A DNA stretch of 64,000 nt from Naegleria gruberi (lineage: Eukaryota), in the NCBI GenBank assembly GCA_000004985.1, contig GG738878.1, one strand, 5' to 3'. A model generated the notes under the pieces. That model saw nothing but the letters and a program-made list of their open reading frames with translations, was not told the origin of the DNA and did not search any database. This document shows, piece after piece, positions 19,115-33,856 of the stretch. Made by a program: the position numbers and the translations under genes. Numbering within the stretch: the stretch's first letter is position 1; each line of letters opens with the position of its first letter.

Positions 19115-21424
19115 ATGAACCTATCCAACAAATTATATGTTGGAAAGGAAAATCTAACACCCAGCCATATGAATATTCTTTCTCCCCAAACAATTCCCTC
19201 ATCAAGAACATCAGCAACACAACAACCATTTAGCAAATCGATATCATCATCTAGTCTCTCGAAACCAACTATTGGAACTTATTCGAGAAGCAAGGCACTC
19301 ATTCAAATTCCAAGTTTTGAAGAATTAAAAAGCAATCAACAACCATTCCATACATTGTCCGAACTCTTCTCCAAGCTTGATACATTTCCAAATCTGCACA
19401 ATGATCAGAAAATTGAATTTATCAAATTATGTATTACTTGTATTGATAAGAGTTTTCTTAAAGTTCACGAGAGGGATATCTACATGTTTTGGATAATATT
19501 GGCCATTCAATTTGTTGGTAATAAGGATATTCCTAACTGGGATGAGGAAGTTAGAAAACGACTCGCCGAACATTTTGAATTCTTATCAAACTATAATCAT
19601 CCTGTTAAAGATGAGGAAAATTTCTACATTTTGAACGCCTTATTCGAGTGGAAAACCAATGAACAACCTGACAAAATATTCAGAAGTATTTCTAAGGTAC
19701 AACAGGGTATTAACCGATTGGGTGAAACTCCAATTTTGGCTGAAATCAAAGGTTCTCTTTTACAGAAATCAATATTTCCACAAGTTGAAATTTCTTACAA
19801 ACCAACCACAATGATTCCATCTTTTCAAAATTTACAAGTACCATCTAGCACACCAACAACTAAATCTACCTCTCCTCAAGATGTTAGTAATTCAGGTGCA
19901 GGATTATTTACTGGAAATAGAAGAAGAAGATCAAATTCAAATAATGACTTCCAACTCATACAACAAAATTCAACAAGGCAGTCAAGTCGTTCCAATCTCT
20001 TTGCCGGTAGTAAGCAATCATCGATCAATATTAATGCTGAAATGCCAAGCATTTCCTCTAGTCCATTTATTTCCTCTACTTCCCTTTCTTCCAACTCGGT
20101 TAGTGCAACACCAACTACTGCACTTTCCATCAAAACTACTAGTGTGCCCCCAACACAAAGCACACCTCAACCACTCCCAACACTCACTTTTCCAACTCCT
20201 ACTTCCATTAACACAGAGAATGTAAATAAGAGACCTAGAGAAGAAGTTGTCTCTACACCATCTGCAACTCCAAATACCAGTACTGCACCAAACAGTACTT
20301 CAACATCTGCTGTCTCTGAGGATGGCAGTGCCAAAAGGTCTAAGCCTACAGTATTTGTACCAATTAACAATAGAGAATACCAAGTATTAAAAAGGATTGG
20401 ATCAGGTGGAAGTTGCACTGTTTACAAGTGTGTTGATACCAATACCAAAGAAGAGGTTGCTATAAAACATATCAAGATTGACAGGACTAAAAACGATAAA
20501 ACTGTCCTTGATGGGTTTCTAGCTGAAGCTACTCTTTTAGAACAATTAAGAGCTGATGATATTGGAGAGAATATTATTAAATTAATTGATTACGAATATA
20601 GACCTCATAACAAGAGGGATGAAATCCTTCTTGTTATGGAGCTAGGTACCACTGATTTTAATAATATTATCAAGAAGAAGAGTGCCAACCAATCATTTAC
20701 TACAGATGAATTGAGAGTTTACTGGAGACAAATGCTTGAAGCAGTTTCCTTTATCCATTCGAAAAAGATTGTCCACACAGACATTAAGCCTGCCAACTTT
20801 TTACTTGTCAATGGTAAATTGAAACTTATCGACTTTGGTATTGCTAAAGTTCCAGATCATGAACAAACTCTAAGCATTTGTAGAAATTCTATTGTTGGTA
20901 CTCTTAACTTTATGCCACCTGAGAGTTTTATTAATCACAATGCCAATGATCCAAAATATAAGTTTGGTCCTCCTGGAGATATTTGGAGTCTTGGAATTAT
21001 CTTTTATCAGACAATTTACCAAAAGACACCATTCTCTGATTTTGAAGATCACCTCACCAAGATTGCACAAATTACAGATAGGAATAAGGAACCATATTTC
21101 CCACCATGTGAAGAGCAATACCAAGAGGCAGTTGACTTGCTGAAAACCATCTTGGTTAAAGATCCAAGTCAAAGACCTTCTATCCGAACAATTTTAGAAC
21201 ATCCATTTTTTGCTCAACCTTTACAACTTTCTATTAATACCAACGAAGAACAAGAAGCATTTTGTAAGAATGTGTTGAAAACTTTTGAATTCTTACTTGA
21301 AAACCTTCCATCTCAATCCGTTCCTCCCCAAAAAGCAGCTTTTAGATTATTAAAGCTTTGTCACGATAATAAGAATGGCGAAGAAATGTCAGAAGATGAC
21401 ATTACTAATTGCCTTTCACAATAA
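19115..21424 (+). CDS. Mps1/TTK-family dual-specificity protein kinase (769 aa); S/T/N-rich N-terminus, C-terminal kinase domain
   Basis: ATG start. Kinase motifs present: [12 protein letters not shown]...[32 protein letters not shown] (cf. TTK [26 protein letters not shown]), TLNFMPPE. Confidence 0.8.
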   Translation: [769 protein letters not shown]

Positions 21425-26929: not shown

Positions 26930-27881
26930 ATGGATGAAGTTACAACTCTCTACCCTCATGTTGAAAAGTGGCTGAAATCAATAGTGCACAATTTCCAAGA
27001 TTTCAAAGAGGCCATGTCGGCACTAACCACTATTAAAAGTATTTGTCAAAATATAATTTTACAACCTTCAGATGAAAAAGTTAAAAAGATACGATTGACC
27101 AATCCACGCTTTGTTGCGAGTGTAGGAAAATTGCCAGGTGCCATCAATCTTCTTTGTTTAATAGGATTTGATAAAGTTATACAAGACAAGGAAGAATATT
27201 TAATATTTGGTTCAAATGATTTGACACCCCTCAAGACCATGCAATCAGTAATTTCTGCCATAATCAAAAGTAACGATCTCAACACTGAATCTACCAATCC
27301 AATTATTGAGCAAGTGTTAACCATGGCAAACAAGAGTATCGAAGAGCAAAAATTATTCTTACTGAAACGTACAGTAACTGATCGTTGCAATATGACAGGA
27401 ATGTTTTTTCTTGGGTATGCTTCTGGGTGTTTTGCTGATGGTAGAAATCTAGAATGGAAGAAAGAAGTTATACGAATTGCCATCAACTGTTTCAAATTTG
27501 ATTGGTTGCAACCAGTTATGAAAGATATCGAGTTCTTTCCGTGCTTGTCTTCTGAATTGGAGAAGAGTAAATATTTGGTGACATGGCTCTGTATTGGTAG
27601 ACTATTCGAATGCTATGAGTCTGTAGTGGTAAGGATACAACAGCTGCACAGTATTGCTGGAAGCATGGCAATGTTTTTGAAAAATAGGAATGATGAATAT
27701 TTTTCTTCTTGGGGTCCTAAATGGATAGATCATTTATTGGAATGCATTGATGATGCTGGCATTTGTAAAAACTTTTTATTGACACTCACATGTTTGATTG
27801 AGGATTTCAATGTCATTGACAACTTCTTGCATGGTACTAAGAAAGTTTTTGTTAGAACAGAAGAAATAGGGACAAATATCT
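26930..27881 (+). CDS. PUB (PNGase/UBA-UBX)-domain protein, 3' end truncated by an assembly gap
   Basis: First ATG at about 26930 (the ORF-track start is GTG). PUB-like core ...IKSICQNIILQPSDEKVKKIRLTNPRFVASVGKLPGAINLLCLIGFDKV...EEYLIF. The ORF runs into the N-run. Confidence 0.5.
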
Positions 27882-27931
27882 NNNNNNNNNNNNNNNNNNN
27901 NNNNNNNNNNNNNNNNNNNNNNNNNNNNNNN
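27882..27931. other. assembly gap (50 N)
   Basis: Run of 50 N; flanking sequence is discontinuous (PUB gene 3' end versus mid-kinase-domain). Confidence 0.99.
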
Positions 27932-28488
27932 GGATATTATTGAACAGATCATTGAACAAGTTGGAATTGGAATTCATTCTTTGCATTCAAAGGAATTAGC
28001 TCATCGTGATAGCAAATATTTTGGTCAGTGGTTCAAACAAGCTCTTCATTTGCTTGTGTGATTTTGATTTTGTCAATGATAACCTCACAACATCCTTATC
28101 TATTGTGGGGACTCCAAAATATCTTCCTCCTGAAATGATTAGTCAGGGGATCCTTTTAAAGAAGAATAGTACAAAGATTGACATTTGGTGCTTTGGAATA
28201 ATCATTTTTAGAATATTGTGTGAATTACTTGGTATTGATTGTTTTTCAGATTGTCCTGAAGAGATACTCGTAGAAGATGATATAAGATTAGGAAGAGCAA
28301 AGGATAGCGAACAATTGAGACAATATCTGGATAAGAAACTTTCAACATCAGAGCTATTGATCAATTATACTTTGGGAGAAGGAAGAAGAATCACCCGATT
28401 TATTGAACTTACGAGGCAATTACTCGAATACCAATATGAGAAGAGGCCAAATGCTTCCACATTAATTGAACTCATTCAGACTCCTTGA
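27932..28488 (+). pseudogene. protein-kinase C-terminal fragment, copy A of the duplicated unit, carrying an 8-nt deletion that destroys the HRDLKEAN catalytic-loop reading frame
   Basis: About 98% identical to 30366-30930. Copy A reads catcgtgat|agcaaat where copy B reads catcgtgatttgaaggaagcaaat. It begins immediately after the gap. Confidence 0.6.
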
Positions 28489-28948
28489 TAAAAATTCGAA
28501 TTAGTAATTTTTCCATTAGCTCTTTTGAGAGCTTTGAAAATTCTCACTGGACACAATTCAAGATTGAAAGTGGTTGTCTCACTCCATCCCTATGTTTTGG
28601 ATCTGACTTTGTAAAACAAATTGATTCATGTAATGTTGAAATTCCTATTATTCTAAGGTTTGAAAATCATTAATAAGCTCAAATAGTTGAGTGCTTTGAA
28701 CTCTTTTTGAAAGTTCTCATGCTGGTTATTTTGTAAAACTACTTGGTCGGGATTCATTTCCGACACAGAGCAACATATGTGTCTGTTTTGCTGTTAAAAA
28801 AGGACGCACAAATATCATCATCACTTGTGTCTATTGCCAAACTATACTGACACAGTATTTAAGGAAGAGATTTTGAAACCATGATCCAAAAAACAACAAC
28901 AAAAAAACAACTGAATATCTCTTGTAATTTACCTAGAATTCTATAATA

Positions 28949-29851
28949 ATGTCTTCTAATCAACAAAATCAATACACTTCTGTAATTGTTATTGGAGCTG
29001 GTGGAAATTGTGGTCTCGAAATTGCCAAAGCAATCTTGGAACATTACCCACAAGTCAAGTTGACCTTGCATGTTAGAAATGAGGAAAAGGTTGCCTCTTT
29101 GAAAGAAAAGGGAGGTAATGTAATTGTTGGGGATATTCTCTCAACAAGTGAAGAGGAGCTCGTAAATGCATTGTCTGGTAAAGAGGTAGTCATTACTGCT
29201 CTTGCAGCTAATCCTGAGCTATTGCTTAAAGGTCAATTGAAACTCATTGAAGCTTCCAAGAAGGCAGGTGTTAAAAAGTACCTTCCAACAACCTATGGTT
29301 TGAATTTAAATCTTTTCAAACCCGAGGAAAGTATGTTAAATGATGCCAAGTTCAAAATTACTGAAACTATCAAACAAAGTGGTTTAGAATGGACTCAAGT
29401 GAATGTAGGAATCTTTGCTCATATGGCTTCCTTCTTATTATTCACCAAGTTTGATGCAGAAACCAAGACAGTTCATTACAATGGTGATTTGAGTGAAAAG
29501 GTTGATGTTAGCTTTTTAGAAGATATTGGAAAGTTTGTAGCTAAATCTGCTATCAGAAAGGATATTGTTGGTGATATTAATGTTGCTTCTGACACTTTGA
29601 CAGTTAAGGAAATTGCTCATTTCATTCATGGTGAAAATATTGAATTCAAACAAGATCAAACAGCAGCTGATTGGATTAAATCCATCCAAGAAAGAATTGC
29701 CGAAAAGTTAAATTCTCCAAGTGAATTATTTCCAATTCTTTTGGAGCAATTAAGATGGACAATTATTTCAGGAAGAAGAGTTGAAAGCTCCAATAATAAT
29801 CTCTTCCAAGATATCAAGCCAAGATTATTCAAAACAATCAATCAACAATAA
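28949..29851 (+). CDS. NmrA-like / isoflavone-reductase-like NAD(P)-binding protein, copy A (300 aa, intact)
   Basis: ATG start. Rossmann motif VIVIGAGGNCGLEIAKAIL, NmrA/PCBER-like length and layout. Confidence 0.7.
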   Translation: MSSNQQNQYTSVIVIGAGGNCGLEIAKAILEHYPQVKLTLHVRNEEKVASLKEKGGNVIVGDILSTSEEELVNALSGKEVVITALAANPELLLKGQLKLIEASKKAGVKKYLPTTYGLNLNLFKPEESMLNDAKFKITETIKQSGLEWTQVNVGIFAHMASFLLFTKFDAETKTVHYNGDLSEKVDVSFLEDIGKFVAKSAIRKDIVGDINVASDTLTVKEIAHFIHGENIEFKQDQTAADWIKSIQERIAEKLNSPSELFPILLEQLRWTIISGRRVESSNNNLFQDIKPRLFKTINQQ

Positions 29852-29923
29852 TATTGTTTCACATTAATATCTATTAATAAAAGATGCTAGAATAATATCT
29901 TCTTCTTCATCATCATCGTCATG

Positions 29924-29973
29924 NNNNNNNNNNNNNNNNNNNNNNNNNNNNNNNNNNNNNNNNNNNNNNNNNN
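29924..29973. other. assembly gap (50 N)
   Basis: Run of 50 N. Confidence 0.99.
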
Positions 29974-29993
29974 TATTTTCCTGTCTTTCTTAG

Positions 29994-30930
29994 TCAATAC
30001 TTGCGTGACAATTACAAAGATCCAAGATATATAGGAAATGGTAACTTTGGAACTGTTTATTTGGTAACTCATCAATATTTCGATGAAAGAAAAGCAATCA
30101 AACAGTTTTCATTGAGGCAAGAGATAGAAATTGATGAACTAATGAAATGTGTAAGTGTCTTGTCATTTTGATAGTGCTAAAAAGCAAAGTATGAATTGAT
30201 TGGCAAAGATTCTCCTCATGTTCTTCCTGTGGAAGGAGTTTTTAAAACTAAAATTAAGGATGACCTTTTTGGCCTGGAAGTTTTGACACCAAAAATGGAA
30301 ATGTCATTAGATGTTTATTTACGAAAGCACTTGTTTGCAAATTCAAAACCACTGTCAACAAAATTGGATATTATTGAACAGATCATTGAACAAGTTGGAA
30401 TTGGAATTCATTCTTTGCATTCAAAGGAATTAGCTCATCGTGATTTGAAGGAAGCAAATATTTTGGTCAGTGGTTCAAACAAGCTCTTCATTTGCTTGTG
30501 TGATTTTGATTTTGTCAATGATAACCTCACAACATCCTTATCTATTGTGGGGACTCCAAAATATCTTCCTCCTGAAATGATTAGTCAGGGGATCCTTTTA
30601 AAGAAGAATAGTACAAAGATTGACATTTGGTGCTTTGGAATAATCATTTTTAGAATATTGTGTGAATTACTTGGTATTGATTGTTTTTCAGATTGTCCTG
30701 AAGAGATACTCGTAGAAGATGATATAAGATTAGGAAGAGCAAAGGATAGCGAACAATTGAGACAATATCTGGATAAGAAACTTTCAACATCAGAGCTATT
30801 GATCAATTATACTTTGGGAGAAGGAAGAAGAATCACCCGATTTATTGAACTTACGAGGCAATTACTCGAATACCAATATGAGAAGAGGCCAAATGCTTCC
30901 ACATTAATTGAACTCATTCAGACTCCTTGA
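29994..30930 (+). CDS. protein kinase, copy B, 5'-partial (N-terminus lost in the gap); exons 29994..30150 and 30190..30930, intron 30151..30189 (39 nt, GTAAGT...AAG)
   Basis: Exon after acceptor ttcttag encodes ...YIGNGNFGTVYLVTHQYFDERKAIKQFS...ELMKC (glycine loop, beta-3 lysine). Exon 2 encodes HRDLKEANILV, DFDF (DFG-like) and GTPKYLPPE. Confidence 0.6.
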
Positions 30931-31261
30931 TAAAAATTTGAATTAGTAATTTTTCCATTAGCTCTTTTGAGAGCTTTGAAAATTCTCACTGGACACAATT
31001 CAAGATTGAAAGTGGTTGTCTCACTCCATCCCTCTGTTTTGGATCTGACTTGTAAAACAAATTGATTCATGTAATGTTGAAATTTTATAAATAATTTCCA
31101 TATTTTCGAAAATTCCTAAAATTCTAAGGTTTGAAAATCATTAATAAGCTCAAATCGTTGAGTGCTTTGAAAGTTCTCACTGGAAAATCTTGTATTTTGT
31201 CCAAACAACAACAACAAAAAAACAACTGAATATCTTATAATTTATTACCTAGAATTCTAAA

Positions 31262-32163
31262 ATGTCTTCTAATCAACAAAATCAATACACTTCTGTAATT
31301 GTTATTGGAGCTGGTGGAAATTGTGGTCTCGAAATTGCCAAAGCAATCTTGGAACATTACCCACAAGTCAAGTTGACCTTGCATGTTAGAAATGAGGAAA
31401 AGGTTGCCTCTTTGAAAGAAAAGGGAGCTAATGTAATTGTTGGGGATATTCTCTCAACAAGTGAAGAGGAGCTCGTAAATGCATTGTCTGGTAAAGAGGT
31501 AGTCATCACTGCTCTTGCAGCTAATCCTGAGCTATTGCTTCAAGGTCAATTGAAACTCATTGAAGCTTCCAAGAAGGCAGGTGTAAAAAAGTACCTTCCA
31601 ACAACCTATGGTTTGAATTTAAATCTTTTCAAACCTGAGGAAAGTATGTTAAATGATGCCAAGTTCAAATTACTGAAACTATCAAACAAAGTGGTTTAGA
31701 ATGGACTCAAGTGAATGTTGGAATCTTTGCTCATATGGCTTCCTTCTTATTATTCAACAAGTTTGATGCAGAAACCAAGACAGTTCATTACAATGGTGAT
31801 TTGAGTGAAAAGGTTGATGTTAGCTTTTTAGAAGATATTGGAAAGTTTGTAGCTAAAGCTGCTATCAGAAAGGATATTGTTGGTGATATTAATGTTGCTT
31901 CTGACACTTTGACAGTTAAGGAAATTGCTCATTTCATTCATGGTGAAAATATTGAATTCAAACAAGATCAAACAGCAGCTGATTGGATTAAATCCATCCA
32001 AGAAAGAATTGCCGAAAAGTTAAATTCTCCAAGTGAATTATTTCCAATTCTTTTGGAGCAATTAAGATGGACAATTATTTCAGGAAGAAGAGTTGAAAGC
32101 TCCAATAGTAATCTCTTCCAAGATATCAAACCAAGATTATTCAAAACAATCAATCAACAATAA
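31262..32163 (+). pseudogene. NmrA-like NAD(P)-binding gene, copy B, with a 1-nt deletion (aagttcaaaTT versus aagttcaaaaTT) causing a frameshift near 31670; otherwise about 98% identical to copy A
   Basis: The ORF track splits it into 31262-31699 and 31711-32163. The homopolymer difference could be a sequencing error. Confidence 0.55.
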
Positions 32164-32185
32164 TATTGTTTCACATTAATATCTA

Positions 32186-32467
32186 TTAATAAAAGATGCT
32201 AGAATAATATTCTTCTTCTTCATCATCATCGTCATTGTTTTGAGTTGGTGGAGGTGGACAAGGATCAACACCCTTATATTTAGTTTCCTTAATGTCTATA
32301 TCTCGTCCTGTAATGAGAGTGTGAATGTTTCGTTCAGAAAACTCAAATAGACCACATTTGACATGTTTCAGGAATGGAATTGGTGATTTTGGGAAGTTTT
32401 TCAAATCCTCTATCACAAACCAAATTCTTTTTCCAGTTTCAGCCAAATGTTTCAACACTTTAAACAC
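32186..32467 (-). CDS. hypothetical protein, 5' end unresolved (no in-frame ATG; the ORF-track start is GTG), acidic C-terminus
   Basis: Protein-like frame ...YAYPYGVFKVLKHLAETGKRIWFVIEDLKNFPKSPIPFLKHVKCGLFEF...DDDDEEEE. An upstream ATGAAGAGGATGATGGAATGG|GTAAAT... could be a first exon, but no canonical acceptor gives the right phase. Confidence 0.3.
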   Translation of the reverse strand: MFKVLKHLAETGKRIWFVIEDLKNFPKSPIPFLKHVKCGLFEFSERNIHTLITGRDIDIKETKYKGVDPCPPPPTQNNDDDDEEEEYYSSIFY

Positions 32468-32918
32468 TCCGTATGGGTATGCATAAGATCAACCTAATAG
32501 AAAGTTTCTGAATTAATTTTAGCCGAAACTACCTTGGCACTCTTTACAAGCTCAAAAATTTACCCATTCCATCATCCTCTTCATGCTAGGGAATCATTTC
32601 ATCATTCAATATTTTCTTCCCGATCATAGAAAATTATTTCCGATCATGATCACTCACGATCGTTCGGAACAATTATTTGAATTTGATTTTGTAGGTAAAA
32701 TTCATAATCTACACAACTCATTTCAATCCAATTAAAAGGTCCACAAGATCAAAAATATGAGGTGAAAAATAGGAAAAGATCAATTCCAAGCATTATTTTT
32801 TAGTTAAATTTAAAATCAAATTTCATAAGAGATTAGTGAAAGATGATACATAACAACCAACAAGAGAATTTATTGATCAAGTTTTCATATATCAGATTAA
32901 CAAGATTATTTGAAAAAA

Positions 32919-33856
32919 ATGGAATCAACATCAATGAATGAAATTGCACTTCTAGGAGGTTAGTAAGAATAAAAATTAGCATACTTTAATAAAACACGCA
33001 CAACAAAAAAGGTACTCAAGGAATTGGCAAGCAATGTCTCTTGTTTCTACTAATGAAGGGAGTGAGAGTGAGAGTTCTTGCTCGTAATCCATCAATGCTC
33101 TCTCCTCTCGATAGTAAATATTCCGATCGATTAAGCATTGTGAAGGGAGATGCTACCAAGGCAGAGGATGTTGCCCAATTAATTTCCAACTCTCAGGTCT
33201 CTCATGTTATTTGTGCTCTTGGAGTGAGAATGAATGAGCCAACCACTGTGGTTGAAAATGGAGTGATCAATGCAATTAGTGTAATGAAGAAACTTGATAG
33301 GGAAATGAGATTTGTGTTGGTTACTTCGTCAGCTCTTGTAAAATCGAATTCTAATTGGTTTTTTGATAATATTGTAAAGAAACACTTGTTGAATCATATT
33401 TACGATGATTTGGAAAGAGCTGAGAAGGCTTTGGTTGAATTGACCAAAGATTCAAAAATCAGTTATGCAATTGTTCGACCACCTCAACTTGTTGATGCAC
33501 CTGCTACTCTCGATTTGATCTACAAGGAAGGAGATGAACAACCAAAAGGAACACATCTCGTCACGAGAGAAGATGTTGCCTCTGTTTTATTAGAATGTAT
33601 CTTTGACAAACAGTTCAATACTGGCAATAGAATATTTAATGTTGATACTACTCGAAAGTTGGATGTCAAAGTGGATGTAATTAAGATTTTGAGATCTGTA
33701 ACACCATACCCAAAGTATTTAATGATTAGATCATTCATGTTTTCAATTCAGGCTGCAATTGGATTCTTGATTGGCTTTTCTCTCTTCAAACTCAAATCAT
33801 TGCTATTCCCTCAACTTGAAGAACACATTATAAAGTATCTCAGTAAACATAAATAA
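32919..33856 (+). CDS. NAD(P)H-binding atypical SDR (NmrA / flavin-reductase BLVRB-like), exons 32919..32958 and 33012..33856; intron 32959..33011 (53 nt, GTTAGT...AAAAG)
   Basis: The spliced N-terminus MESTSMNEIALLGGTQGIGKQ... recreates a GxxGxxG dinucleotide-binding motif. The ORF-track call 33041-33856 is the downstream part with a TTG start. Confidence 0.6.

What the first reader, a model, noticed from the sequence alone, without database searches (positions are those of the whole stretch)
27882..32235. Gap-bounded, diverged tandem duplication of a kinase 3' portion plus an NmrA-like gene, with reciprocal inactivating lesions
Unit A (27932-29923) sits exactly between two 50-N gaps. It is about 98% identical to unit B (about 30366-32235) but not identical: scattered substitutions and a roughly 170-nt intergenic indel. 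In copy A the kinase has an 8-nt deletion that removes the HRDLKEAN catalytic loop, while its NmrA-like gene is intact. In copy B the kinase is intact but the NmrA-like gene has a 1-nt homopolymer deletion. The real cause is either a recent segmental duplication undergoing complementary degeneration or a scaffolding artifact. The artifact could be a paralogous or allelic contig inserted between gaps, or homopolymer read error.
Basis: seen in the sequence. Interest (0 to 1): 0.5.

Follow-up and report, generated by a model that had tools for sequence, protein, structure and literature searches.

The report
Probable false duplication in Naegleria assembly
A 2-kb contig sitting between two assembly gaps in the Naegleria gruberi draft genome nearly repeats the sequence right after it; it is most likely the second allele of one locus wrongly placed beside the first, though a real tandem duplication is not excluded, and either way it is ordinary.

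Summary
Unit A (27932-29923) lies exactly between the window's only two N runs (50 N each). It matches 30366-32235 at about 98%, with an 8-nt deletion in its kinase copy. Unit B has a 1-nt deletion in its NmrA-like copy.

New facts:
- The source is Naegleria gruberi NEG-M, a Sanger draft of a heterozygous diploid, not a dictyostelid.
- Unit A interrupts one gene. A PUB-domain ORF runs open into gap 1, and the kinase N-lobe ORF is open from the first base after gap 2. Joined, they give a clean 623-aa PUB-kinase.
- Kinase B alone is not a gene, so "complementary degeneration" does not fit.
- A third, intact NmrA copy and an intact copy of the downstream gene lie elsewhere on the scaffold. The downstream gene in this window is a pseudogene.
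- Unit A fits the published "duplicated contained contig" profile of falsely duplicated haplotypes.

Verdict: allelic contig inserted into a gap, about 0.55. True 2.3-kb tandem duplication, about 0.33. No reads were available to decide, but public Nanopore reads exist. Low interest either way.

The parts
26930..27881 (+). 5' part of the PUB-kinase gene (contig 'X'): PUB domain plus a helical region. The ORF runs open into gap 1 with no stop.
   Evidence: ORF listing; Pfam PUB PF09409 E=7e-21; identical to residues 1-308 of N. gruberi model P0001.
27882..27931 (.). Assembly gap 1, 50 N.
27932..29923 (+). Unit A: a 1,992-nt contig wholly contained, at about 98% identity, in the sequence of the next contig. 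This is the 'duplicated contained contig' pattern.
   Evidence: compared with PMC2864568.
27932..28488 (+). Kinase C-lobe, copy A. It has an 8-nt deletion at 28010/28011 that destroys the catalytic loop and shifts the frame. Otherwise it has no substitutions relative to B.
28489..28948 (+). Intergenic region, copy A. It keeps a ~150-nt segment that B has lost, lacks a 30-nt segment that B keeps, and shares a ~45-nt segment with B that contig L001 lacks.
28949..29851 (+). NmrA-like gene, copy A, intact at 300 aa (= NAEGRDRAFT_69438). It has 8 private substitutions (3 nonsynonymous, 5 synonymous).
29924..29973 (.). Assembly gap 2, 50 N.
29974..30930 (+). Kinase domain (contig 'Y'). The ORF is open from the first base. 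Features: Gly loop GNGNFG, AIK lysine, a 36-nt GT..AG intron at 30149-30184, HRDLKEAN catalytic loop, DFD in place of DFG, TGA stop. It joins contig X in frame to give a 623-aa ORF.
30366..32235 (+). Unit B, the counterpart of unit A inside the long downstream contig.
31262..32163 (+). NmrA-like gene, copy B, with a 1-nt deletion (A4 to A3) at 31666/31667. The published model NAEGRDRAFT_69440 (293 aa) hides the deletion with an invented intron.
32186..32700 (-). Pseudogene of the convergent downstream gene 'R'. It has an 870-nt internal deletion at about 32464, plus in-frame stops and frameshifts, relative to the intact paralogue NAEGRDRAFT_50311 and to L001. Its last 16 codons are also present at the end of unit A (29874-29923).

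Best explanation
Unit A is most likely the second haplotype (allele) of the single-copy segment 30366-32235. The assembler could not merge reads that touch the indel-rich intergenic region, so those reads formed their own small contig. The scaffolder then dropped that contig into the nearest gap, which happens to lie inside the PUB-kinase gene about 390 nt upstream of the contig's true position. The real locus would then be: PUB-kinase (about 623 aa, one 36-nt intron), then one NmrA-like gene, then a convergent pseudogene. The strain would be heterozygous for an 8-nt kinase deletion on one haplotype and a 1-nt NmrA deletion on the other. What is shown: the contig and gap geometry, the in-frame continuity of the flanks, the nature of the lesions, and the Sanger, heterozygous-diploid source. 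What is inferred: that A and B are alleles rather than paralogues.
For: (1) A is a 1,992-nt contig bounded by the window's only two gaps and wholly contained at about 98% in the neighbouring contig. This matches the 'duplicated contained contig' class, whose falsely duplicated members are mostly under 2 kb with median identity 98.1%; 30-52% of such contigs in the cow, chimp and chicken Sanger assemblies were false haplotype duplications (PMC2864568). (2) A interrupts one gene. The PUB ORF is open into gap 1, and the kinase N-lobe ORF is open from base 1 after gap 2. Removing A restores a 623-aa ORF. The window holds only one kinase N-lobe. (3) NEG-M is a Sanger WGS draft (1,977 contigs), and Naegleria is regarded as a heterozygous diploid (PMC9928731). 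(4) A extends 676-707 nt left and 976 nt right of the unalignable intergenic indels, roughly one Sanger read length each way. That is what is expected if A holds only reads that touch those indels (my inference). (5) Both discrepancies in A's last 26 nt are single-T dropouts in TT runs (ATATTC to ATATC; CATTG to CATG). This looks like a low-quality read tail, so A's right end need not be a repeat boundary. (6) Both gaps are exactly 50 N. That fits floor values for gaps whose estimated size was zero or negative; the convention is recalled from memory and was not verified.
Against: (1) An allelic contig gives no reason for a contig break at 27881|29974, whereas a tandem repeat predicts a fork exactly there. 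The two ends abut in frame with a 1-nt overlap. (2) The locus does have a real paralogue nearby (NmrA copy C plus an intact R gene), so real duplication happens in this region. (3) Two loss-of-function alleles in trans within 4 kb is somewhat unusual. (4) No reads, mate pairs or depth data could be examined. The 50-N argument depends on an unverified assembler convention.
Confidence: 0.55

Rival explanations
1. A true tandem duplication of a roughly 2.26-kb unit (kinase domain, intergenic region, NmrA gene and the last 50 nt of the convergent gene; equivalent to 29974-32235). Gap 1 would hide the kinase N-lobe of copy A, which is identical to that of copy B and so collapsed. Gap 2 would hide the junction. 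The full-length PUB-kinase (copy A) would then be dead because of the 8-nt deletion. Copy B would be a promoter-less kinase fragment followed by a frameshifted NmrA gene.
For: All contig ends fall where repeat forks are predicted: X ends and Y starts at the same point and abut in frame with a 1-nt overlap, and A ends near the proposed unit end. The region demonstrably duplicates: there is a third NmrA copy with an intact R gene on the same scaffold, and a decayed R copy lies next to B. A redundant NmrA copy acquiring a frameshift is expected. The NmrA gene in A carries 8 private substitutions with a constrained pattern of 3 nonsynonymous to 5 synonymous.
Against: No junction sequence and no second kinase N-lobe exist in the assembly. 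The identical stretch is only about 470 nt, shorter than a Sanger read, so the structure should have been resolvable. If gap sizes were estimated, gap 1 should be about 390 N rather than 50 N. There are 0 substitutions in 557 nt of kinase against 11 in 903 nt of NmrA within one duplicated unit, which needs an extra gene-conversion event. It would leave the organism with no functional copy of an otherwise perfectly open 623-codon ORF.
Confidence: 0.33
2. Unit A is a real paralogous segment from another place in the genome (a further kinase-fragment plus NmrA locus) that ambiguous mate pairs pulled into this gap.
For: The NmrA family has at least one other locus on this scaffold, so cross-linking of mates between paralogues is possible.
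Against: A is not copy C: they differ at 7 amino-acid positions. A shares features specific to this locus with B that the locus-C-type contig L001 lacks: the ~45-nt intergenic segment, the extra Asp codon at the 3' end of R, and a kinase C-lobe identical apart from the 8-nt deletion. No other kinase relative was found among N. gruberi proteins.
Confidence: 0.07
3. The two 'inactivating lesions' are consensus errors and both genes are intact in every copy. This bears on the lesions only and is compatible with any layout above.
For: A is probably built from very few reads. Its 3' end shows two single-T dropouts typical of poor read tails. The B lesion is a 1-nt change in an A4 run.
Against: A clean 8-nt deletion flanked by 79 nt and 480 nt of perfect identity is not a typical Sanger error. 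The B frameshift lies in the middle of a long contig of an 8x-class Sanger assembly, not in a 454 assembly.
Confidence: 0.1

Closest known systems
Falsely duplicated haplotype contig ('duplicated contained contig', Kelley & Salzberg 2010, Genome Biol 11:R28; PMC2864568)
   Same: A small contig (1,992 nt) aligns over its full length at about 98% to an adjacent contig. It is placed in a scaffold gap next to its counterpart, in a Sanger WGS assembly of a heterozygous diploid. The differences are SNPs and indels concentrated in non-coding DNA.
   Different: The defining mate-pair test could not be run. The gap that received the contig abuts in frame, which a random coverage gap does not predict.
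Recent tandem segmental duplication followed by pseudogenisation of redundant copies (birth-and-death evolution; duplication-degeneration-complementation model)
   Same: Two adjacent copies about 98% identical, each with one disabled gene. A further paralogous locus lies nearby, and a decayed neighbouring gene is present.
   Different: Copy B's kinase lacks its N-terminal 317 codons and any start codon upstream of the catalytic lysine, so the two copies do not complement each other. No junction or second N-lobe is present in the assembly.
Interlocus gene conversion between nearby paralogues (concerted evolution)
   Same: NmrA copy B differs from paralogue C (NAEGRDRAFT_69423) at only 2 residues. 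C differs at 8 residues from NmrA in L001, even though the adjacent gene in L001 is 457/459 identical to the one beside C.
   Different: The DNA of locus C could not be retrieved, so no conversion tract could be mapped. This explains the pattern of differences, not the layout.

Membership tests
False segmental duplication (duplicated contained contig) | The contig aligns over its full length, at high identity, to a nearby contig in the same scaffold | tested here: met
   A positions 1-712 and 954-1991 align to 30366-31084 and 31200-32235 at 98.5% and 97.9%. The remainder is intergenic indels.
False segmental duplication (duplicated contained contig) | Size and identity typical of the class (mostly under 2 kb; median identity 98.1%) | tested here: met
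   1,992 nt at about 98%.
False segmental duplication (duplicated contained contig) | The source is a WGS assembly of a heterozygous diploid | tested here: met
   N. gruberi NEG-M, Sanger, 1,977 contigs; heterozygous diploid according to the literature.
False segmental duplication (duplicated contained contig) | Mate-pair distances become consistent when the contig is overlaid on its counterpart; each copy has about half the depth of the flanks | not testable with these tools
   No reads or mate pairs were available.
True tandem segmental duplication | A junction where the end of the unit joins the start of the unit | tested here: inconclusive
   A ends in gap 2. Its final base can be read as a T dropout rather than a junction base. 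No junction sequence exists in the window.
True tandem segmental duplication | Every part of the unit is present twice | tested here: inconclusive
   Only one kinase N-lobe is present (tblastn). A second would have to be hidden in a 50-N gap.
Protein kinase (Pfam PF00069) | A significant profile match plus the Gly loop, the VAIK lysine, the HRD..N catalytic loop and the DFG motif | tested here: met
   E=4.7e-30. GNGNFG, AIK and HRDLKEAN are present in copy B, with DFD in place of DFG. Copy A loses the catalytic loop.
NmrA-like family (Pfam PF05368) | A significant profile match plus an N-terminal GxxGxxG dinucleotide-binding motif | tested here: met
   E=2.4e-23 against a cutoff of 27 bits (83.6 bits). 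The motif GAGGNCG is at residues 16-22.
PUB domain (Pfam PF09409) | A significant profile match | tested here: met
   E=7.2e-21, residues 27-105. In the exhaustive search only the PUB stretch had relatives.

The most novel reading that the evidence does not exclude
The duplication is real: a young 2.3-kb tandem copy within a three-copy NmrA family that exchanges sequence by gene conversion. In it, the only full-length copy of a lineage-specific PUB-kinase has just been knocked out and one NmrA copy frameshifted. This would be a snapshot of gene birth and death in a free-living amoeba. A second reading, if A and B are alleles, is that two null alleles in trans persist in a long-clonal, possibly polyploid laboratory strain.
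Probability: 0.33. Interest if true: 0.25.

Novelty: not a real feature. Interest (0 to 1): 0.12.

Why it matters
The main value is as a caution. Three published N. gruberi gene models depend on this layout. NAEGRDRAFT_69437 is a chimera that splices the PUB region across a gap onto the frameshifted kinase copy and has no kinase N-lobe. NAEGRDRAFT_69440 hides a frameshift behind an invented intron. The best kinase copy did not turn up as a separate protein model in my search. Counts of kinases and NmrA-like genes, and of 'recent duplicates', in this reference genome would be inflated or distorted by cases like this. If the duplication is real, it is an ordinary example of local gene birth and death. 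Neither outcome touches an open biological question.

Tried and rejected
- Fetching the N. gruberi scaffold around the locus and around the third copy, using exact-protein look-ups of NmrA-A, P0001 and P0005: nothing on record.
- Looking for PUB-kinase orthologues to measure the true distance across 27881|29974: the word-indexed search and the exhaustive HMMER search found only the N. gruberi model itself and unrelated PUB-domain proteins.
- Two scans of JGI metagenome contigs (PUB-kinase, then NmrA) for wild contigs spanning a junction: no confirmed relative.
- The genome paper and a 2011 review were not held, so published heterozygosity figures and the assembler's gap convention could not be checked. 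Table 1 of PMC9928731 gives no gap total.
- A hairpin or 'hard stop' as the cause of the contig break at 27881|29974: the joined ends form an imperfect palindrome with a 9-bp outer stem, but z = -1.68 and 12 of 200 shuffles fold as well, so it is not significant.
- Using the three-way comparison (A, B, L001) to tell alleles from paralogues: uninformative, because both models fit the same singleton pattern.
Full report

Yes. The window has exactly two N runs, 27882-27931 and 29924-29973, each of 50 N. The 1,992-nt stretch between them (unit A) matches the sequence that begins 2.4 kb downstream. A positions 1-712 align to 30366-31084 at 98.5%, and positions 954-1991 align to 31200-32235 at 97.9%. 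This is the only long repeat in the 64 kb.

A base-by-base alignment shows:
- an 8-nt deletion in A at 28010/28011, where B has TTGAAGGA;
- no substitutions at all in the 557 nt of kinase coding sequence;
- a cluster of indels and substitutions in the intergenic region;
- 11 substitutions in the 903-nt NmrA-like coding sequence;
- a 1-nt deletion (A4 to A3) in B at 31666/31667.

The 8-nt deletion changes HRDLKEAN to HRDSKYF... and leads to a stop. The 1-nt deletion splits B's NmrA ORF into 145-aa and 150-aa pieces, while A's 300-aa ORF is intact. Pfam confirms the protein kinase (E=4.7e-30) and NmrA (E=2.4e-23) assignments.

**2. Where does the sequence come from?**

The flanking protein is 99% identical to a "predicted protein [Naegleria gruberi]". 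All related gene models sit on one 395,411-nt N. gruberi scaffold. The reference strain NEG-M was sequenced by Sanger (40.9 Mb, 1,977 contigs), and Naegleria is treated in the literature as a heterozygous diploid (PMC9928731). So this is not a dictyostelid, and 454-type homopolymer error is not the relevant error mode.

**3. Unit A interrupts one gene.**

- Upstream, an ORF starting at 26930 encodes a PUB domain (PF09409, E=7e-21) and runs open into gap 1.
- Downstream, the sequence is in an open frame from its first base after gap 2. It encodes the kinase N-lobe (GNGNFG, AIK), followed by a 36-nt GT..AG intron (30149-30184) and the C-lobe.
- Joining the two flanks with a 1-nt overlap (equivalent to any gap of 3n+2 nt) gives an uninterrupted 623-aa PUB-kinase ORF. 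Overlaps of 0 or 2 nt run into stops within about 20 codons.
- The window has only one kinase N-lobe.
- The kinase after gap 2, taken alone, has its first Met at residue 57, after the Gly loop and the catalytic lysine. It is therefore not a self-sufficient gene.

This undercuts the idea of "complementary degeneration". In a true tandem layout, the only full-length kinase would be the one carrying the 8-nt deletion.

The published models show how the layout confused the annotation. P0001 (NAEGRDRAFT_69437) splices the PUB region across gap 1 onto the post-deletion frame of unit A and has no N-lobe. P0003 (NAEGRDRAFT_69440) skips B's frameshift with an invented intron.

**4. Wider context: a second locus exists.**

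The 90%-identity cluster of the NmrA protein holds three N. gruberi models: A, B and a third intact copy "C" (NAEGRDRAFT_69423, UniProt D2VKK3). C differs from a repaired B at only 2 residues and from A at 7. C is not in this window.

An ENA metagenome contig (L001, 2,756 nt) carries an NmrA gene that is 97% identical, followed by a convergent 459-aa gene "R". R is 457/459 identical to N. gruberi NAEGRDRAFT_50311 (D2VKK2). That accession is adjacent to copy C and sits 13-14 entries before the PUB-kinase and NmrA-A models (D2VKL6, D2VKL7). The GenBank numbering is consistent with locus C being inverted relative to this one; that last point is my inference.

In this window the R copy downstream of B (32186-32700) is a pseudogene, with an 870-nt internal deletion and several in-frame stops and frameshifts. 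So there is a genuine paralogous locus (intact R plus intact NmrA-C) roughly a dozen genes away, and the copy here is decaying.

**5. Three-way comparison of A, B and L001.**

- In the NmrA coding sequence, A has 8 private substitutions (3 nonsynonymous, 5 synonymous). B has 1 plus the frameshift. L001 has 8.
- In the intergenic region, A holds both a ~150-nt segment shared with L001 and a ~45-nt segment shared with B. B is an A-like sequence minus the ~150-nt segment. A alone lacks a 30-nt segment.
- A and B share an extra Asp codon at the 3' end of R that L001 lacks.

A and B are therefore sister sequences belonging to this locus. B's coding sequence looks homogenised with the C type: B and C differ at 2 residues, whereas C and NmrA in L001 differ at 8 even though R is 99.6% identical. 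That suggests interlocus gene conversion (inference). None of this separates alleles from tandem paralogues, because both models fit.

**6. Artefact or real duplication?**

*For an allelic contig wrongly inserted:*
- The geometry matches Kelley & Salzberg's "duplicated contained contig". The falsely duplicated examples are mostly under 2 kb with median identity 98.1%, and 30-52% of such contigs in three Sanger vertebrate assemblies were false haplotype duplications (PMC2864568).
- Removing A restores one complete gene.
- The strain is heterozygous and the assembly is Sanger WGS.
- A reaches about one read length (676-707 nt and 976 nt) either side of the unalignable intergenic indels.
- Both discrepancies in A's last 26 nt are single-T dropouts in TT runs, typical of a poor read tail. 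A's right end therefore need not mark a repeat boundary.
- Two gaps of exactly 50 N fit floor values produced when a 2-kb contig is forced into a small gap. This rests on my unverified recollection that this assembler estimates gap sizes.

*For a real tandem duplication:*
- A repeat fork would explain why the contigs break exactly at 27881|29974 and abut in frame. An allelic contig offers no reason for that break.
- The region demonstrably duplicates (locus C).
- A redundant NmrA copy acquiring a frameshift is expected.

*Against a real duplication:*
- No junction and no second N-lobe exist in the assembly.
- The identical stretch (about 470 nt) is shorter than a Sanger read, so the structure should have been resolvable.
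- Zero substitutions in 557 nt against 11 in 903 nt within one unit needs an extra conversion event.

My estimates are: artefact about 0.55, true tandem duplication about 0.33, a contig from a different paralogous locus about 0.07. The last is disfavoured because A shares features specific to this locus with B. Whether the lesions are sequencing errors is a separate question. The clean 8-nt deletion is very unlikely to be one. The A4-to-A3 change in B might be, but it lies in a deep part of a long Sanger contig.

**7. What would decide it?**

Public NEG-M Nanopore reads exist (BioStudies S-BSST1363, per PMC12344493). Reads of a few kb across 27.5-32.5 kb would settle the layout at once, and outward-facing PCR would do the same. 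I could not access reads, mate pairs, depth or the rest of the scaffold. No orthologue or wild contig spans the junctions.

**8. Novelty and interest.**

Both outcomes are ordinary: a known class of assembly error, or a routine young tandem duplication with pseudogenisation. The useful product is a correction to three gene models and a caution about paralogue counts in this reference genome. Interest is low (0.12).

Noticed in passing
window 32186-32700 (- strand): The convergent gene downstream of unit B is a pseudogene. It has an 870-nt internal deletion at about 32464, plus in-frame stops and frameshifts, relative to an intact 507-aa N. gruberi paralogue (NAEGRDRAFT_50311, no Pfam domain) and to the metagenome contig L001.
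   Followed up: yes
outside the window, same 395-kb scaffold (NAEGRDRAFT_69423 / D2VKK3 next to NAEGRDRAFT_50311 / D2VKK2): A third, intact NmrA-like copy sits beside the intact downstream gene, roughly a dozen genes upstream and apparently inverted. It differs from copy B at only 2 residues but from NmrA in L001 at 8, which suggests gene conversion between the two loci.
   Followed up: partly
window 26930-28488 and 31262-32163 (published gene models): NAEGRDRAFT_69437 (P0001) is a chimera spliced across gap 1 and lacks the kinase N-lobe. NAEGRDRAFT_69440 (P0003) removes 7 residues with an invented intron to hide the frameshift. The intact kinase copy (29974-30930) did not turn up as a separate protein in the homology search.
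   Followed up: yes
L001 (ENA ERZ929261, contig k127_343876, 2,756 nt): A metagenome assembly contains a contig from a Naegleria almost identical to NEG-M. The downstream gene is 457/459 aa identical, yet the adjacent NmrA gene is only 97% identical to any NEG-M copy. The contig ends 5 nt after the position of the kinase stop codon.
   Followed up: partly
window 26930-27881 + 29974-30930: The PUB-domain plus protein-kinase architecture seems lineage-specific. An exhaustive HMMER search of 1.8 billion representative proteins with the N-terminal 317 aa found only the N. gruberi model itself and proteins sharing just the PUB domain. The kinase has DFD in place of DFG.
   Followed up: partly
window 27841-27881 joined to 29974-29995: The two contig ends flanking unit A form an imperfect palindrome when joined (outer 9-bp stem CTAAGAAAG / CTTTCTTAG). 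The fold is not significantly better than shuffles (z = -1.68).
   Followed up: yes
window 30149-30184: A 36-nt GT..AG intron in the kinase N-lobe is needed to keep the reading frame open.
   Followed up: partly
window 20729-21049 and 33041-33856: A second, distant kinase-like segment lies at 20729-21049 (33% identity to the kinase C-lobe). A separate ORF at 33041-33856, which looks NAD(P)-binding by eye (not run through Pfam), lies just downstream. Neither belongs to the repeat.
   Followed up: no
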